Shown here piece by piece: positions 8,646 through 24,065 of a DNA stretch of 61,875 bases. Both the position numbers and the translations under genes were made by a program. Source of the DNA: a virus; UHGV virus genome UHGV-0856201. One strand, given 5' to 3'. A model generated the notes under the pieces. It ran no database searches and was not told the DNA's origin. It saw nothing but the letters and a program-made list of their open reading frames with translations. Position 1 is the first letter of the stretch. Every line of letters starts with the position of its first letter.

Positions 8646-8673
8646 GGTTAAGAAAACAAGAAGGGATGAATGT

Positions 8674-9596: not shown

Positions 9597-10861
9597 TGCG
9601 TACAGATGGTACTAATCATTTACGCCGCGCTAAATCGATGAAGATCGGTTTTCTGTCCGGCGTGACAAAACCTGCTCACGAGGGAGCAAATGCTCTTGTT
9701 CTTAAATCACATTCAGAACCGCCTGCTGTTGTTCTTTTAAAGTCAACATTTAGTGCAGCACTGGCTGAAAAAGAACTTGAACAGAAAGTTCGCGATTTCC
9801 TCTCTAATTCGTGGATGTTGAACGATGCGCTTTATGAAGCAGCAGAGGATATTGCAAAAGATGATTCTATTACCGATAAACAAGCAGCATTGCGTGACGC
9901 GGTAAATGAATATATTATAACGTTGCAACAGGCCGCTGGTATTTCGATGAATAAAGCGAAAGGTGGTAAAACTGAAGACGGTGAAGTTTTCCCGGCATCT
10001 GATTATGCATATGTACCAGATCCAGAAAAACCTTCAACCTGGAAACTTCGTTTAACAGCCACCCCTGGCGGTGAACCTGATGCGCGTATTGTAGGCGCTG
10101 CACTTGCTGCATTAGGTCCGGGTTATCGCGGTAACAAAGTTGAAATCCCTGAAGCCGATTTAGCAGGTGTGAAAAACAAAGTCCGATCCGCGTGGAAAAA
10201 ATTACACCCGGACCAGGAAGTACCTCAAGTTTTAAAAACGGCAGAGGAAATCGAAATGTCCGAACTGGAACTGGAAAAATACAAAGCCCTGGCTGAGATG
10301 AACGACGTCCATAAGGCGTATCATAATTCTCTGCCTGAATCTGATCAGGAAGCATTCCGTAAAATGGATGCGACTGCTCGCGATGTCCTCGTGACGATGG
10401 CTAAACAGGCTGATGAATCGTTTACCACGATTGCGGGTCAGGTTGTTCAGAAATCTGTAGCTGGTCCGATGTATGACGTTCTGAAATCTCAGGACGAACA
10501 ACTTCGCAAAGCACAGACTGAAGCGGCACTGGCGAAAGCTAAAGAAACCGTGAACGCTGATTTCGCACACATTCCGGGTGAAATGGTACAGAAAACCCAG
10601 ATGGTCATGACTCTTGAGCGTTTGCCGGAAGCGGATCGTAACTTCCTGGTTGAAAAACTCAAACAGGCCGATGAACTCTGGAAAGCACGTAAAGAGCCAG
10701 CAGCGCCGAATGGCAGTGGTAAAGGTTCCAGTGCACTGGAAGACATGATCAACGAATGGCTGAAAGCAAATCCGGGTAAAACACGCACCCAGGCTATGCA
10801 GGCAGTTTCTGCAACTAAAAAAGGTCAGGAAGCAATCGAAGCGATGCGAGGTGACGAATAA
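9596..10861 (+). CDS. putative scaffolding protein
   Basis: 421 aa, A/E/K-rich and coiled-coil-like; upstream of decoration and major capsid genes. Confidence 0.45.
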   Translation: MRTDGTNHLRRAKSMKIGFLSGVTKPAHEGANALVLKSHSEPPAVVLLKSTFSAALAEKELEQKVRDFLSNSWMLNDALYEAAEDIAKDDSITDKQAALRDAVNEYIITLQQAAGISMNKAKGGKTEDGEVFPASDYAYVPDPEKPSTWKLRLTATPGGEPDARIVGAALAALGPGYRGNKVEIPEADLAGVKNKVRSAWKKLHPDQEVPQVLKTAEEIEMSELELEKYKALAEMNDVHKAYHNSLPESDQEAFRKMDATARDVLVTMAKQADESFTTIAGQVVQKSVAGPMYDVLKSQDEQLRKAQTEAALAKAKETVNADFAHIPGEMVQKTQMVMTLERLPEADRNFLVEKLKQADELWKARKEPAAPNGSGKGSSALEDMINEWLKANPGKTRTQAMQAVSATKKGQEAIEAMRGDE

Positions 10862-11271
10862 TGGCTAAGAACAGCAAAATCTACTGGAACTATGAGCGCC
10901 CGACCCGTGCCGTTGCATCGGTGGCTATTTCGGCAGGTGTTGGTCTTGTTCTGGATACCAGTTTAGGTGACACTAATCAGTGTGTACCTAAATACAAACT
11001 CCCAACAGCTGGCGGTCGCATCGACGGTGTAGCTGTTGACGATGCCACTGCTGGTGTATTCTTCGACCTGGTAAACGAAAAAGAAAAATTTGTACCAGTA
11101 AAAGCATCTGCAGCGTTCGGTACAGGTGTCGAACTTGCTGTTGGTGCTGACGGACGATTCCAGACCGCTACTGCTGAACAACTGGTCGTGGCTATTTCTC
11201 AAACTGGTGCCACTGCTGAAAACCAGGTAGCTACCGCATTACTTATTGCACCGTATTCTAAAGGAGCATAA
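10861..11271 (+). CDS. putative head decoration protein
   Basis: 136 aa Gly/Ala/Val-rich; between scaffold and major capsid, as for lambda D. Confidence 0.4.
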   Translation: MAKNSKIYWNYERPTRAVASVAISAGVGLVLDTSLGDTNQCVPKYKLPTAGGRIDGVAVDDATAGVFFDLVNEKEKFVPVKASAAFGTGVELAVGADGRFQTATAEQLVVAISQTGATAENQVATALLIAPYSKGA

Positions 11272-11274
11272 CCG

Positions 11275-12294
11275 ATGAGTTACAAACAGAATTTTCGCGA
11301 CGTTGGCGCACCAGATACATTCCTGTCTAACTTTTCTGTAAGTTACTGGCAGGATACGTCACTGTTTGTCGGTACTCGTTATTTCCCGGTAGTTCCTGTT
11401 AACCAGGCTGCTGGTAAATTCCTGACTTACCCGAAAGGTTATTTCGGTCGTCCGGTTAACTCCAAACGTGCCGAAGATGGTGTTGCTAATACTATTGGTT
11501 ACAAAACCAAAAACCAGGGTTACACCGTTGATGACGATGCGATCCGCATCTTTATTTCTGACAAAAAACGTGCAAACGTTCAAAATGGTCAGCAACTGGA
11601 TATGGAAGCGTCAGCAGTAACCACAGATGCGTTGCTGATCAACAAAGAAGTGGATTTTGCTGAAAAATTCCTGACCGCTGGTAAATGGGGTCTTGATTTC
11701 AAGGGTAAAGACGCGTCTCCGTCCACGGGCGAATTCCTGAAATGGTCTAATGCGAATGCCGATCCGATTGGTGATATCCTGTCACGTCGTGTTGCGTTCT
11801 CTCTGGCATCCGGTGGTCGTCGCTGGAACAAAGCGCTGATGACGCTGGACGTGTATGACGCACTGACCCGTAGCCCGGCTGTTATTGACCGCATTAACGG
11901 TGGTTCTACCACTCAGAATCCGGGGATCGTGACTAAACAGGCACTGGCTGCACTGCTGGAAGTTGACGAATTGGAAATCATGCAGTCCGTGGTCAACATG
12001 GCTGCTGATGGCGTTGAAGACAGTAACGGCAATCCGCTGTCAGACTTCCAGTTTGCTAAAACTGGTGTACTGATGCTCAACTATGTTGAACCGACTGTTG
12101 GCAATATGAAACCTGTTGCGGCTGCGGGCTTCGTGTGGAACGAGTTCATCGGTCTGGGCGTTAACAACGGTCCGTCTATCCGTACCTATCCGGGTGTCGA
12201 AGGCCGTCGTGGTAATTTCGTTGAAGCGGAATTTGCCATTGATGTTCAGATGGTTGCACCTGACCTGGGCGTTCTGTTCTACGACGCGGTTTAA
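11275..12294 (+). CDS. major capsid protein
   Basis: 339 aa; gene order protease-scaffold-decoration-capsid; followed by terminator. Confidence 0.65.
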   Translation: MSYKQNFRDVGAPDTFLSNFSVSYWQDTSLFVGTRYFPVVPVNQAAGKFLTYPKGYFGRPVNSKRAEDGVANTIGYKTKNQGYTVDDDAIRIFISDKKRANVQNGQQLDMEASAVTTDALLINKEVDFAEKFLTAGKWGLDFKGKDASPSTGEFLKWSNANADPIGDILSRRVAFSLASGGRRWNKALMTLDVYDALTRSPAVIDRINGGSTTQNPGIVTKQALAALLEVDELEIMQSVVNMAADGVEDSNGNPLSDFQFAKTGVLMLNYVEPTVGNMKPVAAAGFVWNEFIGLGVNNGPSIRTYPGVEGRRGNFVEAEFAIDVQMVAPDLGVLFYDAV

Positions 12295-12313
12295 TAACAA
12301 CTGTGGTATCATT

Positions 12314-12341
12314 AAGGGGTGGCTTATGCTGCCCCTTTTTT
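12314..12341 (+). terminator. putative rho-independent terminator after capsid gene
   Basis: aagggg...cccctt stem followed by T-run. Confidence 0.5.
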
Positions 12342-12356
12342 CATGAGGTTAAAATC

Positions 12357-12710
12357 ATGCGTAATTCATATGATCCGTCACTGAAATATGTTTTCACCCG
12401 TCCGATACTGTGGAACGGTAAACAGATGTCCGCTGGCGATAAAGTATCAACATCAAAAGCTACCCCGGCTGTTTTAAATGCCCTTGTGCGTATGCGCCAC
12501 ATTGAACCAGCTACTGCGACTGTTGAAGAACCAGTGATTGTAGCAACCGAAGAATCGGCATCAACCACATCTGCTGAAATCCGACGTGACGCGCCAAAAA
12601 CCTATAACGTTTATGTTATGGGTATGCCGATGAATTCAGAATCGTTTAGTAGTAAAAGTGCCGCTGCTGAATGGTGTGAATCACAAGGCTTGACATATAA
12701 CTATTCTTGA
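12357..12710 (+). CDS. hypothetical protein
   Basis: ATG at 12357 with RBS gaggt; 117 aa. Confidence 0.45.
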   Translation: MRNSYDPSLKYVFTRPILWNGKQMSAGDKVSTSKATPAVLNALVRMRHIEPATATVEEPVIVATEESASTTSAEIRRDAPKTYNVYVMGMPMNSESFSSKSAAAEWCESQGLTYNYS

Positions 12711-13392
12711 CCTATTGTTAGTTGTAGATAGTTTTCGTGGCGACTTTGCGGACTTTTTAGAAACTGACCACAAAGATAAATGCAAACGAAGAACGTTTTC
12801 TGATGGCGGCGTAATAGCCTGTAAGTCAGCAAGGTCTTCCGATTCCTTGTAAATAAATTCGGCGCACTGGCCCGGTGTGATTAATAATGGGCACCCACGA
12901 ATGAGAGTACTGTGATTGATCGTCGTTCTTGCGCGCAAAGTCTGCTCGAAGACAGTATTCTCATTCGTGGGTAACAACGGGCATATCGCCTTAGTAAATC
13001 CCTCAAGGGTGCGGCGAATAATCCGGTAATGTCGTTGCCGTAAGCCACACGAAACGTGGCACACAACAGGTAAGAGCATTGGGTAATGTAAAGCTGTGCT
13101 GCGACGATTACCATACATCTCAGTGCTCTTATCGTTGTGGTGAATTGCAGTTCTCAGAAACAACCAGAAGATAAGCGCCTGGCACTGCAACCAAACACTC
13201 GCTGATAAGGAGGTGATCCTTATCTTGCTGGCGGGAAAGCCGCAAATCGTGGGTAAAGCATGTTGTGAAACATCCTGAACTGCGTGTCGTTTTACATAAC
13301 TGGTTATTCACGTGTCACGCATAGGGGTATGTTGGGACGTCAGGTGTGGATGACCAGTTATGTAAAACCCTCATTATCACCCAGAGCCATTT
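12711..13392. other. long non-coding structured region inside structural module
   Basis: No convincing ORF on either strand; 19-bp inverted repeat 12894-12912/12952-12970; hairpin gataagga-ggtga-tccttatc. Confidence 0.4.
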
Positions 13393-13418
13393 GCCGTCTG
13401 TTTAAGACGGCTTTTTTT
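13393..13418 (+). terminator. rho-independent terminator
   Basis: gccgtctgtttaagacggc followed by TTTTTTT. Confidence 0.65.
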
Positions 13419-13457
13419 CGTGCTAATATAACGAAAACATTTCTCACAGGTGATCAC

Positions 13458-13868
13458 ATGGCTATTACAGTTGAAGGTATTCGTTATTTGATCAGTGTCC
13501 CTGATGTTACTGATGAACAAATTCAGTGGTACATTGACAACGGTTATACAAATCCTCTCAGTATTTGCGTCGCTCTCTGTGATTATATGGCGTCTATTGC
13601 CAGCAACGATACTGACATTAAAGTAGGTCCGATCTCACTCAGCAGTAGTCAGTCAGCAGACGCCTGGAATAAACTTAAAAAAGATTTTATTTTACGTATT
13701 AATACTGGCGCTGATTCAGGTGGCGGTTTGTTAGGTGGTTTTATGGGTGTCGGTGGAGCTACATTAACTGGCGCTGGTATGCAACCTGCTATTCAGCGTG
13801 GTCAGTTCGACAACCCACCTGTAACACTTGAAAGCGGTGGTCGTGCACTTAACGAAGGTGAACGGTGA
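13458..13868 (+). CDS. hypothetical structural protein (head-tail region)
   Basis: ATG 13458 after terminator; 136 aa, Gly-rich C-terminus. Confidence 0.4.
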   Translation: MAITVEGIRYLISVPDVTDEQIQWYIDNGYTNPLSICVALCDYMASIASNDTDIKVGPISLSSSQSADAWNKLKKDFILRINTGADSGGGLLGGFMGVGGATLTGAGMQPAIQRGQFDNPPVTLESGGRALNEGER

Positions 13869-14242
13869 TGACAGACAAACGTCAAAGTGTCCTGAATGGT
13901 GTTACTCGTGCACTTGCTGAAGTAGGTGAGGATTTGACGGTAAAACGTGTGACAACAGTTCCCAACCCGTCTAATCCTACATTACCGGGTACAACCGTTA
14001 CTGAATCACACACCTGCCGTGGTTATATTTACCCATTAGAAAAGTGGGATCCGACTACTATGACCCGAATAGCCACAACGATGGTAATTATGGATAGTCA
14101 GAGTTTTGAACCACGATTTGTTCCTGATCGGGGTGATGTTGTGGTTGATGAACGTGGTAAAGAATATCGCCTTCTTGATCGTCAAAACCCACGATTGTTA
14201 GGGGATGATATGGCATTTATTCACCCTGTTGGAGCGGTATAA
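13865..14242 (+). CDS. hypothetical structural protein (head-tail region)
   Basis: 125 aa; ATGA overlap with upstream gene. Confidence 0.4.
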   Translation: MMTDKRQSVLNGVTRALAEVGEDLTVKRVTTVPNPSNPTLPGTTVTESHTCRGYIYPLEKWDPTTMTRIATTMVIMDSQSFEPRFVPDRGDVVVDERGKEYRLLDRQNPRLLGDDMAFIHPVGAV

Positions 14243-15214
14243 CTATAACATCCGTATCAGAGTGGTTATATTTGGATTCCATTTTAACCACTCTGTACAA
14301 CCATCGAACCCTGTTAATCCTGCAGATTCAAAATGAGAATGAAAATCTTTTTCAAGTGAACGAATGGTTGCCCCGTGTCCATTCAATTTTTCTATTACTT
14401 GAAAATCAAATGGTGTTTTTCTACGAAGTGTATTAATTCTTTGCTCTACACAATTACTGATACCTATTTTAACGTAACGACCGCATGTGGACCGCAAGAC
14501 ATAAAGTGTTGCATACTTACCAGCTTTAAACCCTGTTTTACTACAGTTTGGACAACCTTTTTGTTTACTAAGAAAAGAATTAATTGTTGTAACAAAATCA
14601 CCATGCGTTGAACACTTTAATGATATTTTAGATTTCCATGTCGGATGTTCGTCGAATATCTTATTAAAAAACAACCCTGTTTCTTTACATCTATTTGTTA
14701 TTTCAATTTCTCGTTCTTGTTTAGTTTTCTGTCTATTCGTTATACACAATGGACAATCAACAGATGTAAAGATTAGTCTATTGACTGTTGTCTCCCATCC
14801 ACCATGATCAATACAGCTCAGCAAACAAACAGAATTTCCATTTTGAAAATTAGTTTTAAATTTAATAAACTTTGATTTAGAATCTGTTAAACTGTTTTTA
14901 ATCTGTGCAATTCTTAACCCTTTTGTGGTTCGTGTTCCACCACAGATTGGACAACCAGAACCATTCAAAAAATGATAACATTTAGTGTCCCATTCCCCGT
15001 GTGTAACACAAGATAAAATAATTCGTGATTCTTTGTTTTTAAACCCGTCTTTCCATTTTATAAATTTGTAATTTTTTGATTGACAAATATCTTTTATGTT
15101 ATGCTCTAGTTGTTCTTTGGTTAGTCTTTTACCGCCCATTTTTCTACCTTTAGGTTTGTCAATGACTAGCAAAATCAATGATATAAATCGTATTACTGGA
15201 GTGTTTAAAGACAT
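14243..15214 (-). CDS. T5orf172-domain protein with Zn-ribbon repeats, paralog 2
   Basis: C-terminus nearly identical to paralog 1 (GFDGCTEWLKWNPNITTLIR); repeated C..HGxW..C modules. Confidence 0.65.
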   Translation of the reverse strand: MSLNTPVIRFISLILLVIDKPKGRKMGGKRLTKEQLEHNIKDICQSKNYKFIKWKDGFKNKESRIILSCVTHGEWDTKCYHFLNGSGCPICGGTRTTKGLRIAQIKNSLTDSKSKFIKFKTNFQNGNSVCLLSCIDHGGWETTVNRLIFTSVDCPLCITNRQKTKQEREIEITNRCKETGLFFNKIFDEHPTWKSKISLKCSTHGDFVTTINSFLSKQKGCPNCSKTGFKAGKYATLYVLRSTCGRYVKIGISNCVEQRINTLRRKTPFDFQVIEKLNGHGATIRSLEKDFHSHFESAGLTGFDGCTEWLKWNPNITTLIRML

Positions 15215-15590
15215 AAAAGCCGACTTACAAGATTTTACGGATCGTCAAGTCATTAGATATGTTTTAACACTACGTAACATACTCATAAGTGAGCCTCCTG
15301 ATGGTACACCAATATTGAGTGGCTGGGCAAGCAACAACTGGTGGTTCGATCAGGGGCAACCCGCTAATAGTCCTGATACACCAACAGGTAATGTTGAAGC
15401 CAGTAAAGCACGTATCGAACAGGATACGGTCACTATCAGCAGTATTAAAGTTAATGGTCAGGAACTGCATATTACTAACAACGTTCCTTACATTGGGGTT
15501 CTCAATGGTGGTAGCAGTACACAGACACCTTCCGGGTTTGTCGAACGTGCTATATTAAAAGCCGGAATAATGGTGAGGTTTAATCAGTGA
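15162..15590 (+). CDS. putative neck / tail-completion protein
   Basis: Start at internal Met 15162 (MTSKINDINR); position between head and tail genes. Confidence 0.35.
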   Translation: MTSKINDINRITGVFKDIKADLQDFTDRQVIRYVLTLRNILISEPPDGTPILSGWASNNWWFDQGQPANSPDTPTGNVEASKARIEQDTVTISSIKVNGQELHITNNVPYIGVLNGGSSTQTPSGFVERAILKAGIMVRFNQ

Positions 15591-16012
15591 TGACACTCTC
15601 AGATGTTTCAGGAATTGTTTATAATCGCGTTCTGGCGAATCTCCCCGTGGAAATTACGCCTGACAGATTTACAATCGCTTCTGGTCAACTTCCTGACGAC
15701 ACTACAGAAAAACCAGGTCTGATTCTGACACACAATCCCGGTCCGTGGACAATAACCACGCTGGGTGGGGAAGGTGTTTGTCGCCGTCGTTTAAGAACAG
15801 GAAACGTTTTTTTACAGGTACGCACACCTGCTCAGTATGGTATGGACACTTTGAGTATTGATATTGCGGATCGGCTTGCAAAATTATTTGAAGGTGTCTG
15901 GCAGGATCGCCCGTTAATTTACACGAGTGTTGATATTCGTCATCAGGGTCGTGATAACGCGTGGTTTTTAACGAACGTCGTACTTAGTTACGAATACGAA
16001 GAAATATATTAA
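15587..16012 (+). CDS. putative tail-completion protein
   Basis: 141 aa; coupled to upstream gene; precedes major tail gene. Confidence 0.35.
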   Translation: MMTLSDVSGIVYNRVLANLPVEITPDRFTIASGQLPDDTTEKPGLILTHNPGPWTITTLGGEGVCRRRLRTGNVFLQVRTPAQYGMDTLSIDIADRLAKLFEGVWQDRPLIYTSVDIRHQGRDNAWFLTNVVLSYEYEEIY

Positions 16013-16048
16013 ACTACGAATGATTGCAATCAAACGAGGCTTAGAACA

Positions 16049-17506
16049 ATGGCTGAATCAATTTTTAAATGTTCGCAAACACCTGCGGCTGATGTAAACG
16101 CAACACGACTCAGTGTAGCAAAAGTCTGTGAACCTGTTTCTGGTACACCCTGGACGGTTCAACAACCGAATGAAATCAGTTCTTACAGTGCTGATATTAC
16201 AAAGACTCAGCGTACACCGATCAGTACGGACCGATCTGCACGTAAAGGCACGGTAACTAACGTTGAAGTTGCACCGGGCTTTCAGACAGACCTGACACTT
16301 GATGCGTTCCGCTACTGGGGTGACGGATTCCTTTATAGTAAATGGGTCGGTGCTGGTGCAATTGATATCGACGTTACCAGTGTTGACGCTGACGCTTATA
16401 ACGTTACTACTCTTGATGCGGCATTACCTGAAGGTGCTCTTGTTTATGCGACAGGTTTTACACTGGCTGCAAACAACGGTTTGAAAACTGTAGGTACTGA
16501 TAGTACCACTACTGCTATCAACGTGTCAGGGCTTAGTGCCGAAGCGTCACCGCCTGCTGAAGCTCGTTTATATCTCGTGGGGTATGCTGCAGCGTCTGGT
16601 GACATCGCTGTTAACAGTAATGGTCAGTTGACGTCTACCACCCTGGATTTTTCCACACTGGGTTTAGTACCGGGACAGTATATTTATATTGATGGTCTAA
16701 CACAGTCTGTAACCAGTAAAATGGCCCGTGTGACTATGGTTGGCGATCATGTTCTGACTCTCGCTAACAGTGAATTCACCACTGAAGAAGGTACGGGTAA
16801 AACTGTACGTTTATTTGTTTCCAGTTTTGTTCGAAACGTTCCTGTTGACTCTGCAGAGTTCGTTAAAACTGAATACACAATGGAAGCACGTTACAACACG
16901 ACACCTGTCATTTATGAATATGCGCGTGCTGTAGCTGCAAATCAGATGACGATCAACGCGCCGTTGACTGAAAAAATGACAATGGATCTGACGTTTGTCG
17001 CACAAGACTTGTCAGCACCGTCAGAAACCGCGTTACCGGGTTCCGGGTATATTGAATTCGTGGCTAACGAAGCGTACAACACCGTAACGAACCTGAACCG
17101 TGTACGACTGACCGGTATTGATGATAGTGGCCTCAGTACGTTCCTGAAAGACGTTACTGTCACCGTGAATAACAACGTGTCAGGTGAAAACGTGCTGGGC
17201 GTGATGGGTGCTGCGTTTACCAACATCGGTAACCTGGAAATCACGATGGAAACTGAAACGGTGATGACGGACGGTACTGTATTGGCTGCGATCCGTAACA
17301 ACGCGACCGTTAACTTCGAACTTGCTGGGGTAAACGGTGATGGTGCAATCGTGGTTAACATTCCTGCGATGACACTGGGCGACGGTTCTAAGAACCTGGC
17401 AACTGGCGAAAAAGTGAAAGTTACTGTCAGTGGTAACGCTCACGAAGAAGAATCGATCGGCTTTATGATTGGTTTCAGCTTGTTCCCGTACTTGCCTACA
17501 GCATGA
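16049..17506 (+). CDS. major tail protein (large, possibly with Ig-like extension)
   Basis: 485 aa, Thr/Val-rich; directly upstream of G/GT chaperone and tape measure genes. Confidence 0.5.
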   Translation: MAESIFKCSQTPAADVNATRLSVAKVCEPVSGTPWTVQQPNEISSYSADITKTQRTPISTDRSARKGTVTNVEVAPGFQTDLTLDAFRYWGDGFLYSKWVGAGAIDIDVTSVDADAYNVTTLDAALPEGALVYATGFTLAANNGLKTVGTDSTTTAINVSGLSAEASPPAEARLYLVGYAAASGDIAVNSNGQLTSTTLDFSTLGLVPGQYIYIDGLTQSVTSKMARVTMVGDHVLTLANSEFTTEEGTGKTVRLFVSSFVRNVPVDSAEFVKTEYTMEARYNTTPVIYEYARAVAANQMTINAPLTEKMTMDLTFVAQDLSAPSETALPGSGYIEFVANEAYNTVTNLNRVRLTGIDDSGLSTFLKDVTVTVNNNVSGENVLGVMGAAFTNIGNLEITMETETVMTDGTVLAAIRNNATVNFELAGVNGDGAIVVNIPAMTLGDGSKNLATGEKVKVTVSGNAHEEESIGFMIGFSLFPYLPTA

Positions 17507-17526
17507 CATGGTGGTTGGTAGTGGTT

Positions 17527-17549
17527 GCCCGGTTAACGCCGGGCTTTTT
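17527..17549. terminator. bidirectional rho-independent terminator
   Basis: gcccggttaacgccgggc followed by TTTTT. Confidence 0.65.
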
Positions 17550-17550
17550 G

Positions 17551-17718
17551 TTAGCGTTTGGCGAGATAGTCACAACGGGCGATTGCTAAATCTGCAGTCT
17601 TGTACGAAGACTCACTTGTTGAATGGGTTGTTCCAATAACCATTACATGATATCCGTCTTTGTTTTTTAGAACCCAAAACTTACCGTTTTCATGAATAAT
17701 ATTTTTCTCTTTGGTCAT
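17551..17718 (-). CDS. small hypothetical protein (55 aa)
   Basis: MTKEKNIIHENGKFWVLKNKDGYHVMV...; downstream of promoter copy 5. Confidence 0.35.
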   Translation of the reverse strand: MTKEKNIIHENGKFWVLKNKDGYHVMVIGTTHSTSESSYKTADLAIARCDYLAKR

Positions 17719-17739
17719 CGTCTTATCCTCAGTTCGTTT

Positions 17740-17792
17740 CGTTGAGTTAAAGATACCTTAACAGGTGTAATTCGTCAAGAATTATTTTAAAT
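17740..17792 (-). promoter_or_regulatory. conserved phage early promoter (copy 5)
   Basis: ttcgtcaagaattattttaaat; -35 TTGACG 17773-17778 (minus). Confidence 0.6.
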
Positions 17793-17855
17793 ATCTTGCG
17801 TAATTTGTACAGAACTATTACTATCTAATCGTCTACTACATAAAAGGTAAAAACC

Positions 17856-18278
17856 ATGTCAAAGTTTGACCATCTGAAAAAAGCACTTTCTCCATTAGTG
17901 CTGAAGTCTTCTGCTGAACTGATTTTAAATGAAAATTTCAGTATCACCGTGTTGAACCTGAACACCGCTAACCAGGTATATAACGTAACAGTTGCGGACT
18001 ATGTAAAACAGAACGGTGTGTTGTCTGAAAACTTCTTTGAAAAACTGTGGAATCAGGAATATACACCAGAAGGTGTTAAGTTCGTGGCTAACGTTCTTAT
18101 GCTGGACTGGAAACTGATTGGTGAAGATGACAAACCGGAACCATTCAGTGTTGAAGAAGCTATTGAACTGTTAAGTGATGAACGTTTTGGTCAGGTGATC
18201 TACAGCCGTGTTATTCAGTTCGCAATTAATTCCGCATTCTTCCAGGACGAATGGGAGAAACAGATTGAAAAAAACTGA
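17856..18278 (+). CDS. tail assembly chaperone (G-like)
   Basis: 140 aa between major tail and tape measure genes; ends at slippery heptamer A_AAA_AAC. Confidence 0.6.
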   Translation: MSKFDHLKKALSPLVLKSSAELILNENFSITVLNLNTANQVYNVTVADYVKQNGVLSENFFEKLWNQEYTPEGVKFVANVLMLDWKLIGEDDKPEPFSVEEAIELLSDERFGQVIYSRVIQFAINSAFFQDEWEKQIEKN

Positions 18279-18574
18279 TCGACTTCCTCTTGTGGAACGA
18301 TAAGACAGACGGGGACGACCTGGACTGGGTTACACAAGGGGCGGCTGCACGTGGTATATCTGTTCCGGTTGTTGTACAGAAACGTCCTGAATTGCGACCT
18401 GATGCTATCTTTTACTGGAATGCTTATTTGGATCTGATGGAAGCTGATTGGGTTGCTTGTGAGCGTTATGCACGGGTGTATAACGTTGATGTACAATTCT
18501 TGTGGAAATTATTGGTAGCATTGCGGTCTGCACGTGTTGTCGAGATGAAGAAAAATAAACAAAAGCCCGGTTAG
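17856..18574 (+). CDS. tail assembly chaperone frameshift product (G-T-like fusion via -1 frameshift)
   Basis: Zero-frame gaa aaa aac tga; -1 frame opens at 18275 and runs to 18574 (..LIDFLLWNDKTDGDD..). Confidence 0.5.
18269..18275 (+). other. -1 programmed frameshift slippery heptamer A_AAA_AAC
   Basis: Heptamer in X_XXY_YYZ register just before the G stop codon. Confidence 0.55.
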
Positions 18575-18588
18575 TTCCGGGCGTTTTC
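18564..18588. terminator. putative bidirectional terminator
   Basis: gcccggttagttccgggc then gttttc, between convergent genes. Confidence 0.45.
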
Positions 18589-19485
18589 ATTTATGTAGTC
18601 GAGGATTGCAGGAGAGTATTTAAACCACTCTGTAGCACCGTCAAAGCCTTTGAGACGCGCATTAAGTTCACGGAAGACCTTGTGTACCTCTTGTTCCAGT
18701 TTGTAAGCATCAGCGCCGTGTGGAAACAGGTACGACACGAGTTTAACCACTGGGTGTGTTGTTTCGCGTTGTAGTTGTCGTAGTCGCCGTTTTAAGTCGT
18801 TTGTGATACCGACTTTAAGCAGAGTAGGGCACTTTTTATCGTCAGCTAACACGTAGAGTGTACCGGGTTCTGACGGGTTAAAACCTGTTTGTGAACACTG
18901 AGGACAACCATGTTTTTTATGCAAATGCATGGCTGGACGTTGTTCAAACACTCCATGCTCTGGGCAGATGATTTTTATTCGAGTGAAATTGTTAATATAC
19001 GCCACCAACGAATAGTCGTAACGGTCCCCATGAACTTCGCGAGCACGAGTAATGAAATCTTCGGCGCCTAAGCGTTTTTGTTCAGACGACTGTTTACGAG
19101 CACATTGTGGGCAACCTTTCCCGTGAACATGATTGCCCGGTGTCTGTTCAAACACATCATGTATCGGACAGATAATCTTCACAGGTGTGCACCAATTCAC
19201 ATACTCCACCAGCGAATAGTCATACTTGTCACCATGAACTTCACGAGCACGAGTGATAAACTCTTCTGTGGTTAAACGTTTTTGTTCAACAGTACATTGG
19301 GTACAACCTGCTTTCATTGAAGTGTGATTGTTCGGAGTCTGTTCAAATACCCCGTGTTCGGGGCAGATAATTTTTACTTTGGTGTTAGCACCTTCATACT
19401 CCACTAGCGAGTAATCGTATTTGTGCCCATGAACTTCACGGGCACGCGTGATAAACTCTTCTGTGGTTAAACGTTTCCTACTCAT
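18571..19485 (-). CDS. T5orf172-domain protein with three Zn-ribbon repeats, paralog 3
   Basis: Three repeats of FITRAREVHGxKYDYSLV..KIICPEHGVFEQ; C-terminal GTLYVL..LKVGIT..GFDGATEWF. Confidence 0.65.
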   Translation of the reverse strand: MSRKRLTTEEFITRAREVHGHKYDYSLVEYEGANTKVKIICPEHGVFEQTPNNHTSMKAGCTQCTVEQKRLTTEEFITRAREVHGDKYDYSLVEYVNWCTPVKIICPIHDVFEQTPGNHVHGKGCPQCARKQSSEQKRLGAEDFITRAREVHGDRYDYSLVAYINNFTRIKIICPEHGVFEQRPAMHLHKKHGCPQCSQTGFNPSEPGTLYVLADDKKCPTLLKVGITNDLKRRLRQLQRETTHPVVKLVSYLFPHGADAYKLEQEVHKVFRELNARLKGFDGATEWFKYSPAILDYINENARN

Positions 19486-19486
19486 C

Positions 19487-19666
19487 TTATTTGTCGCTTT
19501 TTAACACAGACCAGATTAACGCACCTAACCAACCGACGAATGTCCAACCCGCAAAGATGTTAAGTAAAATAATTGCTGTTTGTTGTTTATGTTTAACGTT
19601 AATCGCGATGAGTGCTGGGATCAGATATACAGCAGCGATTAAGAAAAGAATGATGAAAGTAGCCAT
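19487..19666 (-). CDS. small membrane protein, superinfection-immunity-like
   Basis: 59 aa MATFIILFLIAAVYLIPALIAINVKHKQQTAIILLNIFAGWTFVGWLGALIWSV; resembles Imm_superinfect family. Confidence 0.45.
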   Translation of the reverse strand: MATFIILFLIAAVYLIPALIAINVKHKQQTAIILLNIFAGWTFVGWLGALIWSVLKSDK

Positions 19667-19689
19667 TTTGTAACCCTCCTTTGTTTTGA

Positions 19690-19738
19690 TGTTTGTAGGT
19701 TACACGTCCTTGTGTAATCCATCAAGAATTATTTTAAA
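19690..19738 (-). promoter_or_regulatory. conserved phage early promoter (copy 6)
   Basis: ccatcaagaattattttaaacg; -35 TTGATG; upstream segment near-identical to copy 1. Confidence 0.55.
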
Positions 19739-19800
19739 CGTTTGTCGCTTTTTAGACCCGTGTTAAACTGTGTACATGCTTCACGAAAAGGTTAACCAAC

Positions 19801-22703
19801 ATGGCACAATATCCTATTGATATTAAGATTGACACCGGTTCGGCTGACCGCAATCTTAATAATCTTAACAGTCAGTTAGATCAGACTGAAAAATCAACCA
19901 TAGCGGCAACACAGGCTGCTAATCAGTTATCTGTGGCTGAACAGCAGGTTGCAAAAGCAGCACAGCAACTGGCACAACAACAAGCTAATCAGGCTGCGCG
20001 TACTATAGCAACTGCTCGCGCTACTCGTGAAGCGGCACAGGAACAATCACGCCTGTTAGCAACACAGGGTGCTGCTGCTCGTGCGGCTGGTCAGACTGTT
20101 AATAATCAACAGAAATTTGCTGAATTAGCCAAAATTATCAAACAAGCAACTGCTGATGAAAAGAAAGCAATTGACGATCTGACTAACAGTCTTAAAAAAC
20201 TTGATAATCAGCAGAATAACACTAACCAATCAACACAAAAAACTAAGGGCGCTCTTGAAACACTTGTCACTGGTGCAAAAGCGTTTGTCGGTTTACAGAT
20301 TGCAGGATCGCTTTACGACTGGGGTAAAGCCTTTGTAGATACTGCAACGAAAGTCGAACTGCTACAAAGTCGTATCAATCTGTACACATCAACGTCTGTC
20401 GAATCACAACAGATATTTGCGCAATTAGTACAACAAGCTAACCGTGCTGGTACAGATATTGACGCTGTGGCAAACAGTTTTCAGCGTTTTGCCGCTGCTG
20501 GTAAAGATGCCGGGATTAGTAATCAGGTTATTTTACAGTTTACCGACAACCTGCAAAAAATGGCCCGTGTATCTGGTGCATCCAGTGCTGAAGCATCTGC
20601 GGCTATTTATCAATTGTCACAGGCATTTGCATCTGGTCTTTTGCAGGGGGATGAATTCCGATCTGTGTCAGAACAGTTACCAACTGTTCTTCAGGTGCTG
20701 GCTAAACAGATGGGTGTTACCACGGATGAACTTAAACAGTTAGGTTCTGATGGCGAAATTACCCGTGATAAACTGTTATTGTTAAACAACGCGACTGATG
20801 AAATCAGCGCACAGTTCGATAAACTTCCTCGTTCTGTAGATCAGTCTGCCACTGCGTTACGTAACAACCTGTCCGTGGCTATCGCTGAACTCGATCAGCA
20901 GATTGGCGCATCTAAATTCCTGGCTAAATTCCTGGACCTGTTAGCAGGTGGTGTATCGGGTACAACAGAGTTAATAAAAGCCGCTGCAGGTGCTGACAAA
21001 CTGGCACAAGCCACTAACAATCTGAATAGTGTTACCGCAAAACGTGAAGCCAATCTGAAAGAAATTGCAGATCTGGAAGCACAAATTCAGCGTGGGTATA
21101 CAACACAGTCAATTGGTGGGTATACAAAATTTGTTGGTGACACCAGTGCTGCACAGAAGAAATTAAACGAACTTAAAAAACTTGATGTTCAGTTAACAAA
21201 ACAACAAGCAGAAGCACAACGAGGGGTTGTTCAGGCTACTCCGTTGGGTAAGGGTGTTGCTGAAAATCTTGCAAATCAGGCAAGCACTTTACAGGCGAGT
21301 ATTACGGCTGCTCAGGCTGCCGGACGTCCTGATGCCGAATCTGCAAAACAGATTAAAAACCTGAAAGAACAGATCACCTACACCCAGGCGCTTGCTGACG
21401 GTAACTATGAACTGGCAGCAAGTCAGAAACTGGGTAATAAAGCAACTAAGGAACAGATTGCAGACTATGCTGCATTGTTGAAACAACAGGCAGAATATAA
21501 AGAAAACCAAAAAAACAGAAGGAATCAGCGAGTGCTGCTAAACGTGCACAGAAAGAACTGGAACGTAATCAGGCTGCTAACCAGAAATACCTGAAAACGC
21601 TTCAGGATAAAATCAATGCTGGTAATTATGATGTTCAGTTAGCCCGCGAACAGGTTCAGATTGCTTTAACACAGGGGTCGTCTGTTGAACAACTTACAGC
21701 AACGTATCAGAAAGAATATCAGGTACGTCAACAGTTAACGCTGGCTTCACAACAAGCAGAAGCACAGTCACGACTGAATAAAGACGCGACAGATGCTGAA
21801 CGTGCTGCTGTTGATGCACATGTGGCTGCATTGCAACGTCAACAGCAGATAGCACAGTTAAGCGCAGATGTAAAACAAGTTGACATTGATGTGAAAGCAC
21901 AGTTGAACCCGTATCAATCACAAATTGATCAGGTTAATCAACAGGAAGCAACACGTCTTAGTATTATCCAAGCTGCCCGTGAACAAGATTTAATCAACGA
22001 ACAACAATACCAGGATATGAAAACGCAGATTCAACAGGCTGGGGAACAAGCCCGTACGAATCTTGCAAACGCTAACTACAGCTTGTTGCTACAATCCAGT
22101 GCTGATTTTTTGGGTCAAATGGCTGCTGGTCTGGCACAATCTAAAGGTGAGCAATCAAACGCGTATAAAGCGATGTTTGCACTGTCTAAAGCCTTTAGTA
22201 TCGCACAGGCGAGTATTAACCTGTGGACAGCCGTTAGTCAGGCTATGGCGTTGCCGTTCCCGGCGAATATTCCGTTCATTGCACAGGCTTTATCATACGG
22301 GACAAGTGTGTTAGGTAACATTCAGTCTGTGGCTGCAACAGGTTTTGCAACGGGTGGTTATGTTAAAGGTCCGGGTACAGGTCAGAGTGACAGTATAAAC
22401 GCACGTTTGAGTAATGGTGAGTTTGTCAGTACCAAACAGGCTACCAGTCGTTATCGTAGCACTCTGGAAGCAATGAATCGTGGCACATATACACCAGGAT
22501 CTGAAGGTGGTTCATCACCTAATATTCAGGTTCATAACTACGGTGGTGAACGTGTTCAGGTGAAACAAGGATTAACACGAGATGACGTAGTGCTTATCAT
22601 AGGTGAAGAATTCCCACGACAATCAGCGGCACAATGGAATGACCCGTACAGTCAGACGAATAAAGCGTTCAGGTCTAACTATGATGCGAACAGGAAAATA
22701 TAA
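19801..22703 (+). CDS. tape measure protein, split by a -1 frame change at an A7 run
   Basis: ORFs 19801-21594 and 21501-22703 are both TMP-like; frames overlap 21501-21594. Confidence 0.7.
21510..21516 (+). other. A_AAA_AAC heptamer at the tape measure frame change
   Basis: Same heptamer and register as the chaperone site; a -1 slip here continues the ORF to 22703. Confidence 0.4.
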
Positions 22704-23206
22704 TGAGCAATACAGATGATTTACCACGACTTGAGTACGGCGCGAAAATGGTGTTACCTGAGCGTGATAATTACAGTTATAACCCGCCGTGGGGTGTAAC
22801 TAAATCTGATATTTCCGGGACGCTATCACGGTTAGGTCGTAGCGCCTTTGGTGGTCCTGCTCAGGTATCGTGTACAATTCAGTTATATAGTCCTGCGATG
22901 CTTCAGTGGTGGGACGATTTTTATAATCTGGAAATCGCTGAAGGTAGTAAGCGGTTTGTGATGCAACTGTTTGTGAACGGTTTGATTCAGGAACACGTTG
23001 TTCAGATTGTCAGTAACCCGTCATCCTCTGTTGTAGGATGGAAAGGATCTGTCGATCTACAGTTGCAAGCTGTTCCGGTAATCGACCGTTGCGCAATGGC
23101 ATCACGATTGTTAATCACTAAATGCCAGGGTGATTACGCTGCTTGTTACCTTAAAGAAATTATTGATACTGGCCTACTCTTAAATAACGCGTGGACACCA
23201 GAATGA
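22703..23206 (+). CDS. minor tail protein
   Basis: 167 aa immediately after tape measure gene. Confidence 0.4.
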   Translation: MSNTDDLPRLEYGAKMVLPERDNYSYNPPWGVTKSDISGTLSRLGRSAFGGPAQVSCTIQLYSPAMLQWWDDFYNLEIAEGSKRFVMQLFVNGLIQEHVVQIVSNPSSSVVGWKGSVDLQLQAVPVIDRCAMASRLLITKCQGDYAACYLKEIIDTGLLLNNAWTPE

Positions 23207-23709
23207 AAGACGAACTACGTGAATTATTAACGGTCGCAACAACTGGTAAAGGTGTTGTTGACGGTGTGAAACTGAATCATAGTTCATGGCCCAATCCGCT
23301 ATACATCACCAGTGTTTATCCGGGATTTATCGCTGTGCATGAAGACGGTAAGGAATACGAGTATGAGTACGTTCCTATGTCCGTCAAGAAGGCGAATAAA
23401 CAAAACGATTTATCACAGGATTATTCATTCACCATTCAGGATCTGAATGAAGTTGTCGGTGTATATCTGGACTTAATTCCACTTGACAGCAATGAAAAAC
23501 CATCTGTTGAGTTACGAACGTTTGTTTATCGTGAAGATGGTTCCATGTCTGATATTCAGGATGGGCCATATCTTCTGGAATCTGGTGACATTACTACCGA
23601 ACCACAGGGTTGTACGTTCACAGCATCACCACCTATTACGAACTTTGCCGGGACAGGTGAATTATATACGTTTGAACGTTTTCCCACTCTACTGGCGTAT
23701 GCAACATGA
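23191..23709 (+). CDS. minor tail protein
   Basis: 172 aa; coupled in tail-tip operon. Confidence 0.4.
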   Translation: MDTRMKDELRELLTVATTGKGVVDGVKLNHSSWPNPLYITSVYPGFIAVHEDGKEYEYEYVPMSVKKANKQNDLSQDYSFTIQDLNEVVGVYLDLIPLDSNEKPSVELRTFVYREDGSMSDIQDGPYLLESGDITTEPQGCTFTASPPITNFAGTGELYTFERFPTLLAYAT

Positions 23710-24065
23710 TCGGTGACCGCTACGATATTGACAAATGGAATTGTACACACGAGGTTAGTCAGTGGTATCAGGTCCACAACTACCCATACGTATTGAAAAC
23801 TGTTTCAGGTGATGAATGGGATATTGCGTTTGTCAGATGGATGCGAAAACGTTTTTCACCAATTACCACACCGGAACAAGGCGCACTTGTACTGATGAAG
23901 AACCGATATTCAGGCGGTTTTCATGTCGGCGTGTGGGATTGTGGAATGGTTCATCATTGTTATCAACCACCGGGTGATTCACCAGGACAGACAATCAGAT
24001 CACCTTTAAGTATAATCAAGACAGCACATAAAGAAATCACGTTCTGGAGAATGAAAAGTGTCTAA
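23706..24065 (+). CDS. tail assembly protein, NlpC/P60-like
   Basis: 119 aa; candidate Cys/His residues (WNCTH, GGFHVGV, VHH); position as lambda K. Confidence 0.4.
   Translation: MIGDRYDIDKWNCTHEVSQWYQVHNYPYVLKTVSGDEWDIAFVRWMRKRFSPITTPEQGALVLMKNRYSGGFHVGVWDCGMVHHCYQPPGDSPGQTIRSPLSIIKTAHKEITFWRMKSV

What the first reader, a model, noticed from the sequence alone, without database searches (positions are those of the whole stretch)
18269..18275. Programmed -1 frameshift site (A_AAA_AAC) producing a G-T-like tail chaperone fusion
The 140-aa chaperone gene ends gaa-aaa-aac-tga with the slippery heptamer in correct register, and the -1 frame is open for a further ~100 codons to 18574. This is the conserved G/GT arrangement upstream of tape measure genes.
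Basis: partly seen in the sequence, partly recalled or inferred. Interest (0 to 1): 0.45.

Follow-up and report, generated by a model that had tools for sequence, protein, structure and literature searches.

The report
Known tail-chaperone frameshift site, confirmed
The site is a real and strongly conserved ribosome-slipping signal that lets this 9NA/Sasha-type phage make a short and a long tail-assembly chaperone from one gene, but the same site is already annotated in its close relatives, so it is ordinary.

Summary
A 140-codon gene (17856..18278) ends gaA-AAA-AAC-TGA, so the heptamer A_AAA_AAC (18269..18275) is in X_XXY_YYZ register. The -1 frame is closed by TGA at 18266..18268 and then open to TAG at 18572..18574. 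The two frames therefore overlap only on the heptamer, and slipping gives a 239-aa fusion.

The window is a Sashavirus/Nonanavirus siphophage. GenBank already annotates this fusion in phage Sasha ("frameshift product") and in 9NA ("translated with -1 frameshift").

My comparison adds support:
- The heptamer is invariant and in register in 26 loci from six clades, down to 26% G identity.
- The codon before it changes amino acid (GAA/ACA/GTA/ATA) but always ends in A.
- The T frame shows third-position-biased substitution.
- 9NA's T frame has no ATG/GTG/TTG at all, so T cannot start on its own.

I found no conserved downstream RNA structure.

One correction: the tape-measure gene is not adjacent here. 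A minus-strand homing-endonuclease plus superinfection-immunity cassette sits between.

In passing: the tape-measure gene is broken by a 1-nt deletion exactly on a second in-register A_AAA_AAC (21510..21516), and the window ends are anellovirus sequence, so the assembly is chimeric.

The parts
17856..18278 (+). Gene G: 140-aa tail assembly chaperone, the product of normal (0-frame) translation
   Evidence: ORF list and translation. phrog_8233 'tail assembly chaperone' E 3e-48 and phrog_313 E 9.8e-18. Precomputed Pfam PF27119 Phage_YdaY on identical proteins. 99% identical to Sasha gp44 and 88% to 9NA gp48. The AF2 model of the G domain has pLDDT 70-92 and matches BFVD models named tape-measure or tail assembly chaperone.
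18269..18275 (+). Slippery heptamer A_AAA_AAC in X_XXY_YYZ register, the inferred -1 shift site
   Evidence: Invariant and in register in 26 loci (23 distinct sequences) from six clades. The codon before it is GAA, ACA, GTA or ATA, always ending in A although the amino acid changes.
18266..18268 (+). TGA in the -1 frame directly 5' of the heptamer; with the 0-frame TGA at 18276..18278 it confines any productive shift to the heptamer
18275..18574 (+). T segment: 99 codons in the -1 frame, entered by re-reading C18275, ending at TAG 18572..18574
   Evidence: phrog_8233 profile positions 141-250, E 3.7e-30. A weak match to PF23812 Phage_TAC_18, 23.2 bits against a cut-off of 27. Substitutions by codon position in this frame against 9NA are 12/5/35. 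T is 36-44% identical to the Morganella, Proteus and Vibrio relatives, against 26-37% for G.
18253..18257 (+). Internal Shine-Dalgarno-like GGGAG, 11 nt upstream of the heptamer; a possible but not conserved stimulator
   Evidence: Sequence. Present in the window, 9NA and the Klebsiella clade, but GGGAA in Sasha, Bas82 and most close relatives. It overlaps the conserved Trp-Glu codons, so nucleotide-level selection cannot be separated from protein-level selection.
18283..18344 (+). Candidate downstream hairpin starting 7 nt after the heptamer (outer stem CCUCUUGUG / CACAAGGGG); weakly supported
   Evidence: Folding z-scores of -1.3 to -2.4 in the enteric clade, with one compensatory U-A to C-G change between Sasha-type and 9NA-type. 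Not conserved across the family: alifold gives no structure and 63% of cells are paired against 59% in shuffles. The 132-nt fold has z = -0.14.
18565..18582 (.). Bidirectional intrinsic-terminator-like hairpin whose loop holds the T stop codon; it also ends the convergent endonuclease gene
   Evidence: The equivalent terminator is annotated in Sasha right after gp45.
16049..17506 (+). Major tail tube protein gene upstream (485 aa), followed by a terminator-like hairpin at 17527..17544
   Evidence: PF18906 Phage_tube_2 E 9e-18. 98% identical to Sasha gp42 'major tail tube protein'. Terminator scan.
18571..19666 (-). Inserted minus-strand cassette between T and the tape measure gene: a 304-aa T5orf172/DUF723 endonuclease (18571..19485) and a 59-aa Imm_superinfect protein (19487..19666)
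   Evidence: Pfam and PHROG hits. Present in Bas82 and several metagenomic relatives, absent in Sasha and 9NA, where the tape measure gene follows T directly.
19801..22703 (+). Tape measure protein gene, the presumed client of G/GT; split in this assembly into 19801..21594 and 21822..22703 by a 1-nt deletion at a second in-register A_AAA_AAC (21510..21516)
   Evidence: PF20155 TMP_3 E 6e-52. phrog_1107 N-terminal and C-terminal halves match the two ORFs. Alignment to the Sasha and Bas82 genes.

Best explanation
This is the -1 programmed ribosomal frameshift site of the tail assembly chaperone gene of a Sashavirus/Nonanavirus (9NA-like) siphophage.

Most ribosomes translate G (140 aa) and stop at TGA 18276..18278. 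A minority slip one base 5' while tRNA-Lys and tRNA-Asn sit on AAA-AAC. The tRNAs re-pair with AAA-AAA, the next codon read is C18275-UG (Leu), and translation continues for 98 more codons to give the 239-aa GT fusion with the junction ...QIEKN-LIDFLLWNDK...

By analogy with lambda gpG/gpGT, G and the G part of GT coat the tape measure protein. The T part recruits the tail tube protein, the two products are needed in a fixed ratio, and neither ends up in the virion.

Shown here by computation: the sequence geometry, the conservation of the site, selection on the T frame, and the lack of an independent start for T. Inferred: that the ribosome (not RNA polymerase) slips, the efficiency (probably low, a few per cent), and the division of labour between the G and T domains.
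For: 1. Geometry. The heptamer is in register. A -1-frame stop lies directly before it and the 0-frame stop directly after, so the overlap of the two frames is the heptamer alone.

2. Conservation. AAAAAAC is invariant and in register in 26 loci (23 distinct sequences) from Sasha-like, 9NA-like, Klebsiella Carvaje-like, Morganella/Flyfo, Proteus Gorganvirus and Vibrio phages, with G identity down to 26%. In the gapless 82-column alignment, columns 1-8 are the only run of invariant columns. The codon before the heptamer encodes E, T, V or I, always with the A-ending codon. With the window's codon usage, the codon choices in five clades have a joint probability of roughly 1e-4 (a rough estimate).

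3. A long -1 ORF everywhere. The -1 frame is open for 84-99 codons in the 26 loci compared, and the 0-frame stop lies 0-1 codons after the heptamer. Among ten further contigs read, one apparent exception (L032) is a run of N in a scaffold.

4. T is a real coding region in that frame. Substitutions by codon position are 12/5/35 (window against 9NA) and 12/9/33 (against a Klebsiella-like contig). The protein alignment is conserved from the first residue after the junction (KNL invariant). T is more conserved than G in distant clades.

5. T has no start of its own. 9NA's T frame has no ATG, GTG or TTG. Klebsiella-type phages have none before codon 40. The window's TTG at 18290 has no Shine-Dalgarno sequence (upstream sequence ctgatcgacttcctc) and is Gln or His in other clades.

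6. Family and position. One PHROG profile spans G then T colinearly. The gene lies between the tube and tape measure genes. BFVD fold matches go to proteins named tape-measure or tail assembly chaperone.

7. Prior annotation of the same site: Sasha CPTSasha_45 'frameshift product' and 9NA gp49 'translated with -1 frameshift'.

8. Literature (review PMC5009743). G-T frameshifting is widely conserved in long-tailed dsDNA phages. A_AAA_AAC is the g-t shift site of haloarchaeal virus HCTV-2. In E. coli, A_AAA_AAC is much less shifty than A_AAA_AAG, which fits a low GT:G ratio.
Against: - No protein-level or reporter evidence exists for this phage. I could not read the 9NA genomics papers to see whether GT was detected.
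- No conserved stimulatory RNA structure was found. The upstream GGGAG is not conserved in the closest relatives. Efficiency therefore rests on the heptamer alone.
- A_AAA_AAC is a weak shifter in E. coli according to the review.
- The run of 6-7 A could in principle also support transcriptional slippage, which sequence comparison cannot separate from ribosomal slippage.
- G has no hit to the lambda gpG or gpT Pfam families. No PDB homologue was found by sequence or by Foldseek. The 'chaperone' function is therefore assigned from position, architecture and database names, not from demonstrated homology to a characterised chaperone.
Confidence: 0.9

Rival explanations
1. GT is made by transcriptional slippage. 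RNA polymerase adds one extra A on the A7 run (18268..18274), which gives an mRNA in which G and T are in one frame with the junction ...IEKK-LIDF...
For: The window and the Sasha and 9NA clades have 7 consecutive A, and the other clades have 6. An A insertion would give the same frame change as a -1 ribosomal slip. The review read treats transcriptional slippage as a real route to frameshifted products.
Against: What is conserved is the exact in-register heptamer including the 3' C, not the run length, which is 6 or 7. The -1 and 0-frame stops box the heptamer in codon register, a property that matters to ribosomes and not to RNA polymerase. From my own knowledge, efficient slippage by bacterial RNA polymerase usually needs runs of about 9 or more A/T.
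Confidence: 0.06
2. T is a separate 94-aa protein initiated at TTG 18290 (or by termination-reinitiation after the G stop). This is how it is annotated in Bas82, PJ16 and several Proteus and Vibrio phage records, and how gene callers treat it in metagenomes.
For: Bas82 lists two separate 'tail assembly chaperone' CDS. Gene callers call a 94-aa ORF in most metagenomic contigs. TTG 18290 lies 11 nt after the G stop.
Against: There is no Shine-Dalgarno sequence before TTG 18290. The codon is CTG in 9NA, CAG in the Klebsiella clade, and CAA or CAT in Morganella and Proteus phages. 9NA has no canonical start anywhere in the T frame. The residues between the heptamer and that codon (L-I/V-D/E-x-L) are conserved at protein level across clades. 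The phrog_8233 profile is continuous across the junction.
Confidence: 0.03
3. Coincidence: a common A-rich heptamer happens to sit at the end of a gene, and the downstream ORF is not expressed.
For: AAAAAAC is not enriched in the window: 25 copies against 27.95 expected.
Against: The heptamer is invariant in six clades while the flanks diverge. The downstream frame is under purifying selection and is more conserved than G itself.
Confidence: 0.01

Closest known systems
Salmonella phage Sasha gp44/gp45 (KX987158, CPTSasha_44/45) and Salmonella phage 9NA gp48/gp49 (KJ802832)
   Same: Orthologous genes, with G 99% and 88% identical. They have the same A_AAA_AAC heptamer in the same register at the last two sense codons of G, the same kind of -1 extension (99 and 90 codons), and an annotated joined CDS ('frameshift product'; 'translated with -1 frameshift').
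   Different: In Sasha and 9NA the tape measure gene follows T within about 60-70 nt. In the window, as in Bas82, a minus-strand endonuclease plus Imm_superinfect cassette is inserted there. The window has GGGAG 11 nt upstream where Sasha has GGGAA. In 9NA the -1 frame opens 25 nt, not 7 nt, before the G stop.
Bacteriophage lambda gpG/gpGT (shift site G_GGA_AAG)
   Same: There are two overlapping ORFs between the major tail gene and the tape measure gene. A -1 slip near the end of G gives a G-T fusion. According to the review PMC5009743, low-level shifting sets a fixed ratio of about 30:1, G binds the tape measure protein, T binds the tail tube protein, and neither is in virions.
   Different: The heptamer differs (A_AAA_AAC against G_GGA_AAG). 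I detected no sequence similarity: no hit to any lambda-type G or T Pfam family at E <= 0.01. The ratio and the binding partners are untested here.
E. coli dnaX tau/gamma frameshift (A_AAA_AAG)
   Same: It uses an A-rich heptamer decoded by tRNA-Lys. The window also has an internal Shine-Dalgarno-like GGGAG at a similar distance upstream (11 nt here; about 10 nt in dnaX, from my own knowledge).
   Different: The last base is C, so tRNA-Asn is in the A site, and the review reports this as much less shift-prone in E. coli. No strong conserved downstream hairpin was found. The SD-like element is not conserved. The outcome is an extension, not a truncation.
g-t frameshift of haloarchaeal siphovirus HCTV-2
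   Same: The review PMC5009743 reports the same heptamer, A_AAA_AAC, as the g-t shift site.
   Different: It is an unrelated virus with an archaeal translation system. I made no sequence comparison.

Membership tests
Conserved G/GT tail assembly chaperone frameshift of long-tailed dsDNA phages (lambda G-T type) | Two overlapping ORFs on the same strand, lying between the major tail (tube) gene and the tape measure gene | tested here: met
   Tube gene 16049..17506 (PF18906), G 17856..18278, T to 18574, tape measure gene from 19801 (PF20155). A minus-strand cassette of about 1.1 kb and small minus-strand genes interrupt the adjacency.
Conserved G/GT tail assembly chaperone frameshift of long-tailed dsDNA phages (lambda G-T type) | A canonical X_XXY_YYZ slippery heptamer, in register, inside the overlap near the 3' end of G | tested here: met
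   A_AAA_AAC at 18269..18275. The overlap of the two frames is exactly these 7 nt.
Conserved G/GT tail assembly chaperone frameshift of long-tailed dsDNA phages (lambda G-T type) | Shift site and downstream ORF conserved among homologues while surrounding sequence diverges | tested here: met
   26 loci in six clades. The heptamer is invariant, and the T frame is open for 84-99 codons and under purifying selection.
Conserved G/GT tail assembly chaperone frameshift of long-tailed dsDNA phages (lambda G-T type) | T has no independent translation start | tested here: met
   No conserved start codon and no Shine-Dalgarno sequence. 9NA's T frame has no ATG, GTG or TTG.
Conserved G/GT tail assembly chaperone frameshift of long-tailed dsDNA phages (lambda G-T type) | The fusion protein GT is actually made, at a low fixed ratio to G, and is required for tail assembly | not testable with these tools
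   This needs mass spectrometry, western blotting, a reporter and genetics. The only support is annotation in relatives, which is itself predictive.
Conserved G/GT tail assembly chaperone frameshift of long-tailed dsDNA phages (lambda G-T type) | Sequence or fold homology to a characterised tail assembly chaperone | tested here: inconclusive
   phrog_8233 and phrog_313 'tail assembly chaperone' hits are strong, but those names are positional. In Pfam, T is below the cut-off for PF23812 Phage_TAC_18 (23.2 against 27 bits) and G has no local hit; the precomputed hit is PF27119 Phage_YdaY. No NCBIfam or PDB sequence hit. Foldseek against PDB found nothing. BFVD matches to the CcrColossus 'pre-tape measure chaperone' (E 1e-5) and other proteins named chaperone have low TM-scores, and the T half of the model has pLDDT below 50.
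dnaX-type stimulated -1 frameshift (SD-like element upstream plus hairpin downstream) | Conserved upstream SD-like element at about 10-14 nt | tested here: not met
   GGGAG lies 11 nt upstream in the window, 9NA and the Klebsiella clade, but it is GGGAA in Sasha, Bas82 and ten metagenomic contigs with identical G.
dnaX-type stimulated -1 frameshift (SD-like element upstream plus hairpin downstream) | Conserved stable downstream stem-loop 5-9 nt after the heptamer | tested here: inconclusive
   A hairpin from +8 to +69 exists in the enteric clade, with one compensatory change and z of -1.3 to -2.4. Across the family there is no consensus structure, and 63% of cells are paired against 59% in shuffles.

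The most novel reading that the evidence does not exclude
The tape measure gene 3.2 kb downstream is interrupted by loss of one C exactly at a second in-register A_AAA_AAC. The window reads caA-AAA-AAC-AGA at 21510..21516, where every relative examined reads caA-AAA-AAC-CAG. A -1 slip on that heptamer would re-read the C and restore the ancestral ...ENQKN-QK... sequence and a 967-aa tape measure protein.

If the deletion is real rather than a sequencing artefact, and this phage is viable, then it makes its essential tape measure protein only through -1 slippage on the same heptamer it uses for G/GT. That would be a natural 'saviour' frameshift and a built-in reporter of the heptamer's shiftiness.

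Evidence so far:
- It is the only frame-broken gene among about 58 genes shared with Sasha.
- An independent Logan assembly of run ERR975293 is 100% identical over 5.9 kb, including the deletion.
- No other contig carries the deletion.
- The window is a chimeric virome assembly, so a defective minority variant or a consensus error remains the more likely reading.
Probability: 0.15. Interest if true: 0.55.

Novelty: already known. Interest (0 to 1): 0.15.

Why it matters
For annotation, G and T should be joined as one frameshifted CDS (17856..18275 joined to 18275..18574). Several public records of this phage group (Bas82, PJ16, Carvaje, the Proteus and Vibrio relatives, and automatic gene calls in metagenomes) list T as a separate gene or omit it.

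Biologically it adds little. It is one more instance of the conserved G/GT strategy, and it is already annotated in Sasha and 9NA.

Three modest additions come from this work:
- The same heptamer is conserved out to Vibrio phages with about 27% identical G.
- The T domain is better conserved than G in the distant clades.
- No conserved stimulatory RNA structure accompanies the site.

The tape-measure break on an identical heptamer is the only item here that might repay an experiment or a look at the reads.

Tried and rejected
- **Downstream stimulatory RNA structure.** The single-sequence fold of 18269..18400 gave z = -0.14. Per-relative folds showed an enteric-clade hairpin with z of -1.3 to -2.4. 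RNAalifold on 23 distinct sequences returned no structure. The count of structure pairs on 18 sequences gave 63% paired against 59% in shuffles. I rejected it as a conserved feature and kept it only as a weak clade-specific candidate.
- **Upstream SD-like GGGAG as a stimulator.** It is not conserved in the closest relatives.
- **Enrichment of the heptamer.** There is none.
- **Homology to solved structures or curated families.** PDB by sequence, NCBIfam and Foldseek against PDB all found nothing. Pfam for G found nothing locally.
- **Link to E. coli prophage ydaY by DNA similarity.** No match in E. coli genomes.
- **Literature.** The 9NA genomics paper (PMC6819911) is not held. Text searches for 9NA with frameshift found nothing useful. 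ERR975293 is not mentioned in any held paper.
- **Other carriers of the tape-measure deletion.** None in IMG/VR or the JGI metagenomes. Only the Logan twin of the same sequence carries it.
- **An apparent exception with a short T frame.** Contig L032 turned out to contain a scaffold N-run.
- **Protein search.** The big search returned only 23 G-type proteins, all 135-142 aa, no fused forms and no T-only hits. The alignment behind the structure model therefore covered G only, and the T half of the model is unreliable.

Full report
**What is in the sequence.** The + strand ORF 17856..18278 encodes 140 aa and ends ...cag att gaA AAA AAC TGA. The heptamer AAAAAAC at 18269..18275 is therefore in X_XXY_YYZ register. 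In the -1 frame a TGA lies at 18266..18268, directly 5' of the heptamer. That frame then stays open to TAG at 18572..18574, 98 codons past the G stop. The +1 frame closes within about 25 nt. The two long frames share only the seven bases of the heptamer, so any event that joins them must happen there. A tandem -1 slip gives a 239-aa protein with the junction ...EWEKQIEKN-LIDFLLWNDK....

**Is it more than chance?** The motif by itself is not unusual: 25 copies on both strands against 27.95 +/- 5.2 in dinucleotide shuffles. I scanned every six-frame ORF of at least 60 aa for in-register XXXYYYZ heptamers and found 86. Those with the longest -1 extensions past the 0-frame stop are either spurious ORFs nested in real genes or one of two sites in genuine genes: this one, and a second A_AAA_AAC in the tape measure gene. 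The real evidence is comparative, below.

**What the window is.** The region is 93-97% identical to Escherichia phage KarinMuster_Bas82, Sashavirus isolates, and Salmonella phages Sasha, Sergei and Solent. It is about 82% identical to Salmonella phage 9NA. The BASEL paper places Bas82 among the 9NA relatives, with a genome of about 58.5 kb (PMC11990801). The gene order is as follows.

| Coordinates | Strand | Feature |
|---|---|---|
| 16049..17506 | + | tail tube gene (PF18906) |
| 17551..17718 | - | small gene |
| 17856..18278 | + | G |
| 18275..18574 | + | T (-1 frame) |
| 18571..19485 | - | T5orf172/DUF723 endonuclease |
| 19487..19666 | - | Imm_superinfect |
| 19801.. | + | tape measure gene (PF20155) |

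In Sasha and 9NA the tape measure gene follows T directly. The endonuclease cassette is present in Bas82 and in several metagenomic relatives. Terminator-like hairpins bracket G/T at 17527..17544 and 18565..18582. The second holds the T stop codon in its loop and faces both ways.

**Already annotated.** GenBank KX987158 (Sasha) carries a joined CDS CPTSasha_45, 'tail assembly chaperone; frameshift product'. KJ802832 (9NA) carries gp49, 'putative tail assembly chaperone; translated with -1 frameshift'. Both use the same heptamer. Other records treat T differently: Bas82 lists it as a separate CDS, and Carvaje, SP-062 and Henu15 omit it.

**Comparative test.** tblastn with G found 94 phage records. 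I read 26 loci (23 distinct sequences around the site) from six clades. G identity to the window is given for each representative aligned:

- Sasha-like: 99%
- 9NA-like: 88%
- Klebsiella Carvaje-like: 72-74%
- Morganella Henu15: 37% (its close relative Flyfo Tbat2_2 was 35.5% by tblastn)
- Proteus Gorganvirus: 32%
- Vibrio: 26-28%

.

In all of them AAAAAAC is present and in register. The 0-frame stop follows 0 or 1 codon later, and the -1 frame is open for 84-99 codons. In a gapless 82-column alignment the heptamer plus the next base is the only invariant block. The codon before the heptamer encodes Glu, Thr, Val or Ile in different clades but is always the A-ending codon (GAA, ACA, GTA, ATA). 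Lys is always AAA and Asn always AAC. With the window's codon usage, the joint probability over five clades is about 1e-4, a rough figure. Ten further contigs that encode the identical G protein all have the site. One apparent exception (L032) is a scaffold gap of N.

**T is coding, in that frame, and cannot start on its own.** Substitutions between the window and 9NA over the first 80 T codons fall 12/5/35 on codon positions 1/2/3 of the -1 frame. Other pairs behave similarly. The translated fusions align without gaps through the junction. K-N-L is invariant, and there are strong motifs further on (DGDxLDW, AAxRG, RPxL, FYWxA, YAR). In the distant clades T is better conserved than G (36-44% against 26-37%). 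The TTG at 18290 that gene callers use has no Shine-Dalgarno sequence. The same codon is CTG, CAG, CAA or CAT in other clades. 9NA's T frame has no ATG, GTG or TTG at all, and the Klebsiella clade has none before codon 40. PHROG family 8233 ('tail assembly chaperone', 271 positions) matches G on positions 5-140 and T on 141-250, so the profile itself is a fusion.

**Stimulators.** I found none that is conserved.

- The 132 nt from the heptamer onward fold no better than shuffles (z = -0.14).
- In the enteric clade a hairpin begins 7 nt after the heptamer (18283..18344 in the window). It has one double-synonymous compensatory change (U-A in Sasha-type, C-G in 9NA-type), but also an A.A mismatch in the Klebsiella clade, and z-scores of only -1.3 to -2.4.
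- Across the family RNAalifold returns nothing. The window's structure is 63% paired against 59% in column shuffles and 57% when slid by one.
- A GGGAG lies 11 nt upstream in the window (18253..18257), which recalls dnaX (spacing from my own knowledge). It is GGGAA in Sasha, Bas82 and all ten metagenomic contigs with identical G.

According to the review PMC5009743, A_AAA_AAC is much less shift-prone than A_AAA_AAG in E. coli. Lambda needs only a low GT:G ratio of about 1:30, and HCTV-2 uses A_AAA_AAC for its g-t shift. A weak, unstimulated site is thus compatible with the function.

**Function.** The 'chaperone' label rests on position, architecture and database names.

- Pfam gives only a sub-threshold PF23812 Phage_TAC_18 match for T (23.2 against 27 bits) and nothing for G in the local copy. 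The precomputed tables list PF27119 Phage_YdaY for G.
- NCBIfam and PDB sequence searches found nothing.
- An AlphaFold2 model, built on an alignment of 20 sequences that covers G only, is confident for the G domain (pLDDT 70-92) and poor for T (below 50).
- Foldseek found nothing in the PDB.
- In BFVD it found the 231-aa 9NA fusion, the CcrColossus 'pre-tape measure chaperone' (E 1e-5) and several proteins named tail or tape-measure chaperone, with modest TM-scores.

The mechanism proposed, that G coats the tape measure protein and T recruits the tube protein, is taken from lambda (PMC5009743). It is an inference here.

**Rivals.**

- Transcriptional slippage on the 6-7 A run would give the same frame change and cannot be excluded from sequence. 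However, what is conserved is the codon-registered heptamer with its 3' C, boxed by stops in both frames, and not the run length.
- Independent initiation or reinitiation of T is contradicted by the missing or unconserved start and by the conserved residues upstream of it.
- Coincidence is excluded by the comparative data.

**Noticed in passing.**

1. *The tape measure gene is split in this assembly* into 19801..21594 and 21822..22703. Relatives read caA-AAA-AAC-CAG, while the window reads caA-AAA-AAC-AGA at 21510..21516, and an in-frame 12-nt deletion follows about 20 nt later. This heptamer is also in register, and a -1 slip would restore the ancestral residues exactly and give a 967-aa protein. 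It is the only frame-broken gene among about 58 genes shared with Sasha. A Logan assembly of run ERR975293 is 100% identical to window 19691..25594, deletion included. No other contig has the deletion.

2. *The window is chimeric.* Bases 1..1679 and about 60188..61875 encode anellovirus ORF2 and ORF1 fragments (PF02957, PF02956). Bases 1680..60187 are one full turn of a phage genome of about 58.4 kb. The joins are exact 127-nt repeats, which look like de Bruijn graph joins. The sample is thus a virome, and single-base accuracy should be checked in the reads.

3. *Three paralogous endonuclease genes.* Three T5orf172/phrog_681 genes lie on the minus strand among the + strand structural genes.

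**Verdict.** The site is a textbook G/GT -1 frameshift, already annotated in the nearest named relatives. It is of low novelty, and its practical value is in correcting annotation.

Noticed in passing
window 19801..22703, break at 21510..21516: The tape measure gene is split into 597-aa and 293-aa ORFs by loss of one C at a second in-register A_AAA_AAC. Relatives read AAC-CAG and the window reads AAC-AG. A -1 slip there would restore the ancestral protein exactly (967 aa). It is the only broken gene among about 58 shared with Sasha, and it is reproduced in Logan contig ERR975293_9. It is absent from IMG/VR and the JGI metagenomes, and ten contigs with identical G have an intact tape measure gene.
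   Followed up: partly
window 1..1679 and 60188..61875; joins at 1680..1806 = 60061..60187 and 48532..48658 = 60288..60414: The window ends are anellovirus sequence: a TT_ORF2-like ORF at 235..618, the TT_ORF1 N-terminal part at 510..1619, and the TT_ORF1 C-terminal part inside 60171..61454. They flank one complete turn of the phage genome of about 58.4 kb. The joins are exact 127-nt repeats, which suggests a chimeric k=127 graph assembly of a virome.
   Followed up: partly
window 5942..6865, 14243..15214, 18571..19485 (all minus strand): Three paralogous phrog_681 endonuclease genes sit among the + strand structural genes. Pfam T5orf172/DUF723 domains were checked only on the third (18571..19485). 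Bases 5955..6191 and 14250..14486 are 84% identical. The third one, with an Imm_superinfect gene (19487..19666), separates G/T from the tape measure gene. Their presence varies among close relatives, as expected of homing elements.
   Followed up: partly
L001 (Bas82) 6890..7174; L015 (Isfahan) 1989..2162; L016-L018 and L024-L026 (Vibrio phages); L013, L014, L022: Public records of this phage group are inconsistent about T. It is annotated as a separate CDS from an internal TTG or ATG, or truncated, or missing, although all of these records carry the conserved in-register A_AAA_AAC. Only Sasha-type (Sasha, Sergei, Solent, AVIO78A, PDP46) and 9NA records list two chaperone features, and I saw a joined frameshift CDS only in Sasha and 9NA.
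   Followed up: yes
window 17527..17544 and 18565..18582; promoter-like site 17758..17785: G/T appears to be its own small transcription unit. It is bracketed by terminator-like hairpins, and a sigma-70-like match (9 of 12 positions) lies about 70 nt before the G start. The downstream hairpin is bidirectional and contains the T stop codon.
   Followed up: no
window 8850..9069, 34123..34277, 46790..46907: A self-comparison shows short tandem direct repeats. Those at 8850..9069 have a period of about 21 nt and lie inside ORF 8644..9189. The 60-nt repeat at 34123..34277 lies in the gene equivalent to Sasha gp63, where Sasha annotates a 'direct tandem repeat region'.
   Followed up: no
L032-L041 (contigs encoding the identical G protein): Phages with 100% identical G carry tape measure proteins of three lengths (855, 971 and 1065 aa). 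The chaperone is thus not co-varying with tape-measure (tail) length in this group.
   Followed up: no
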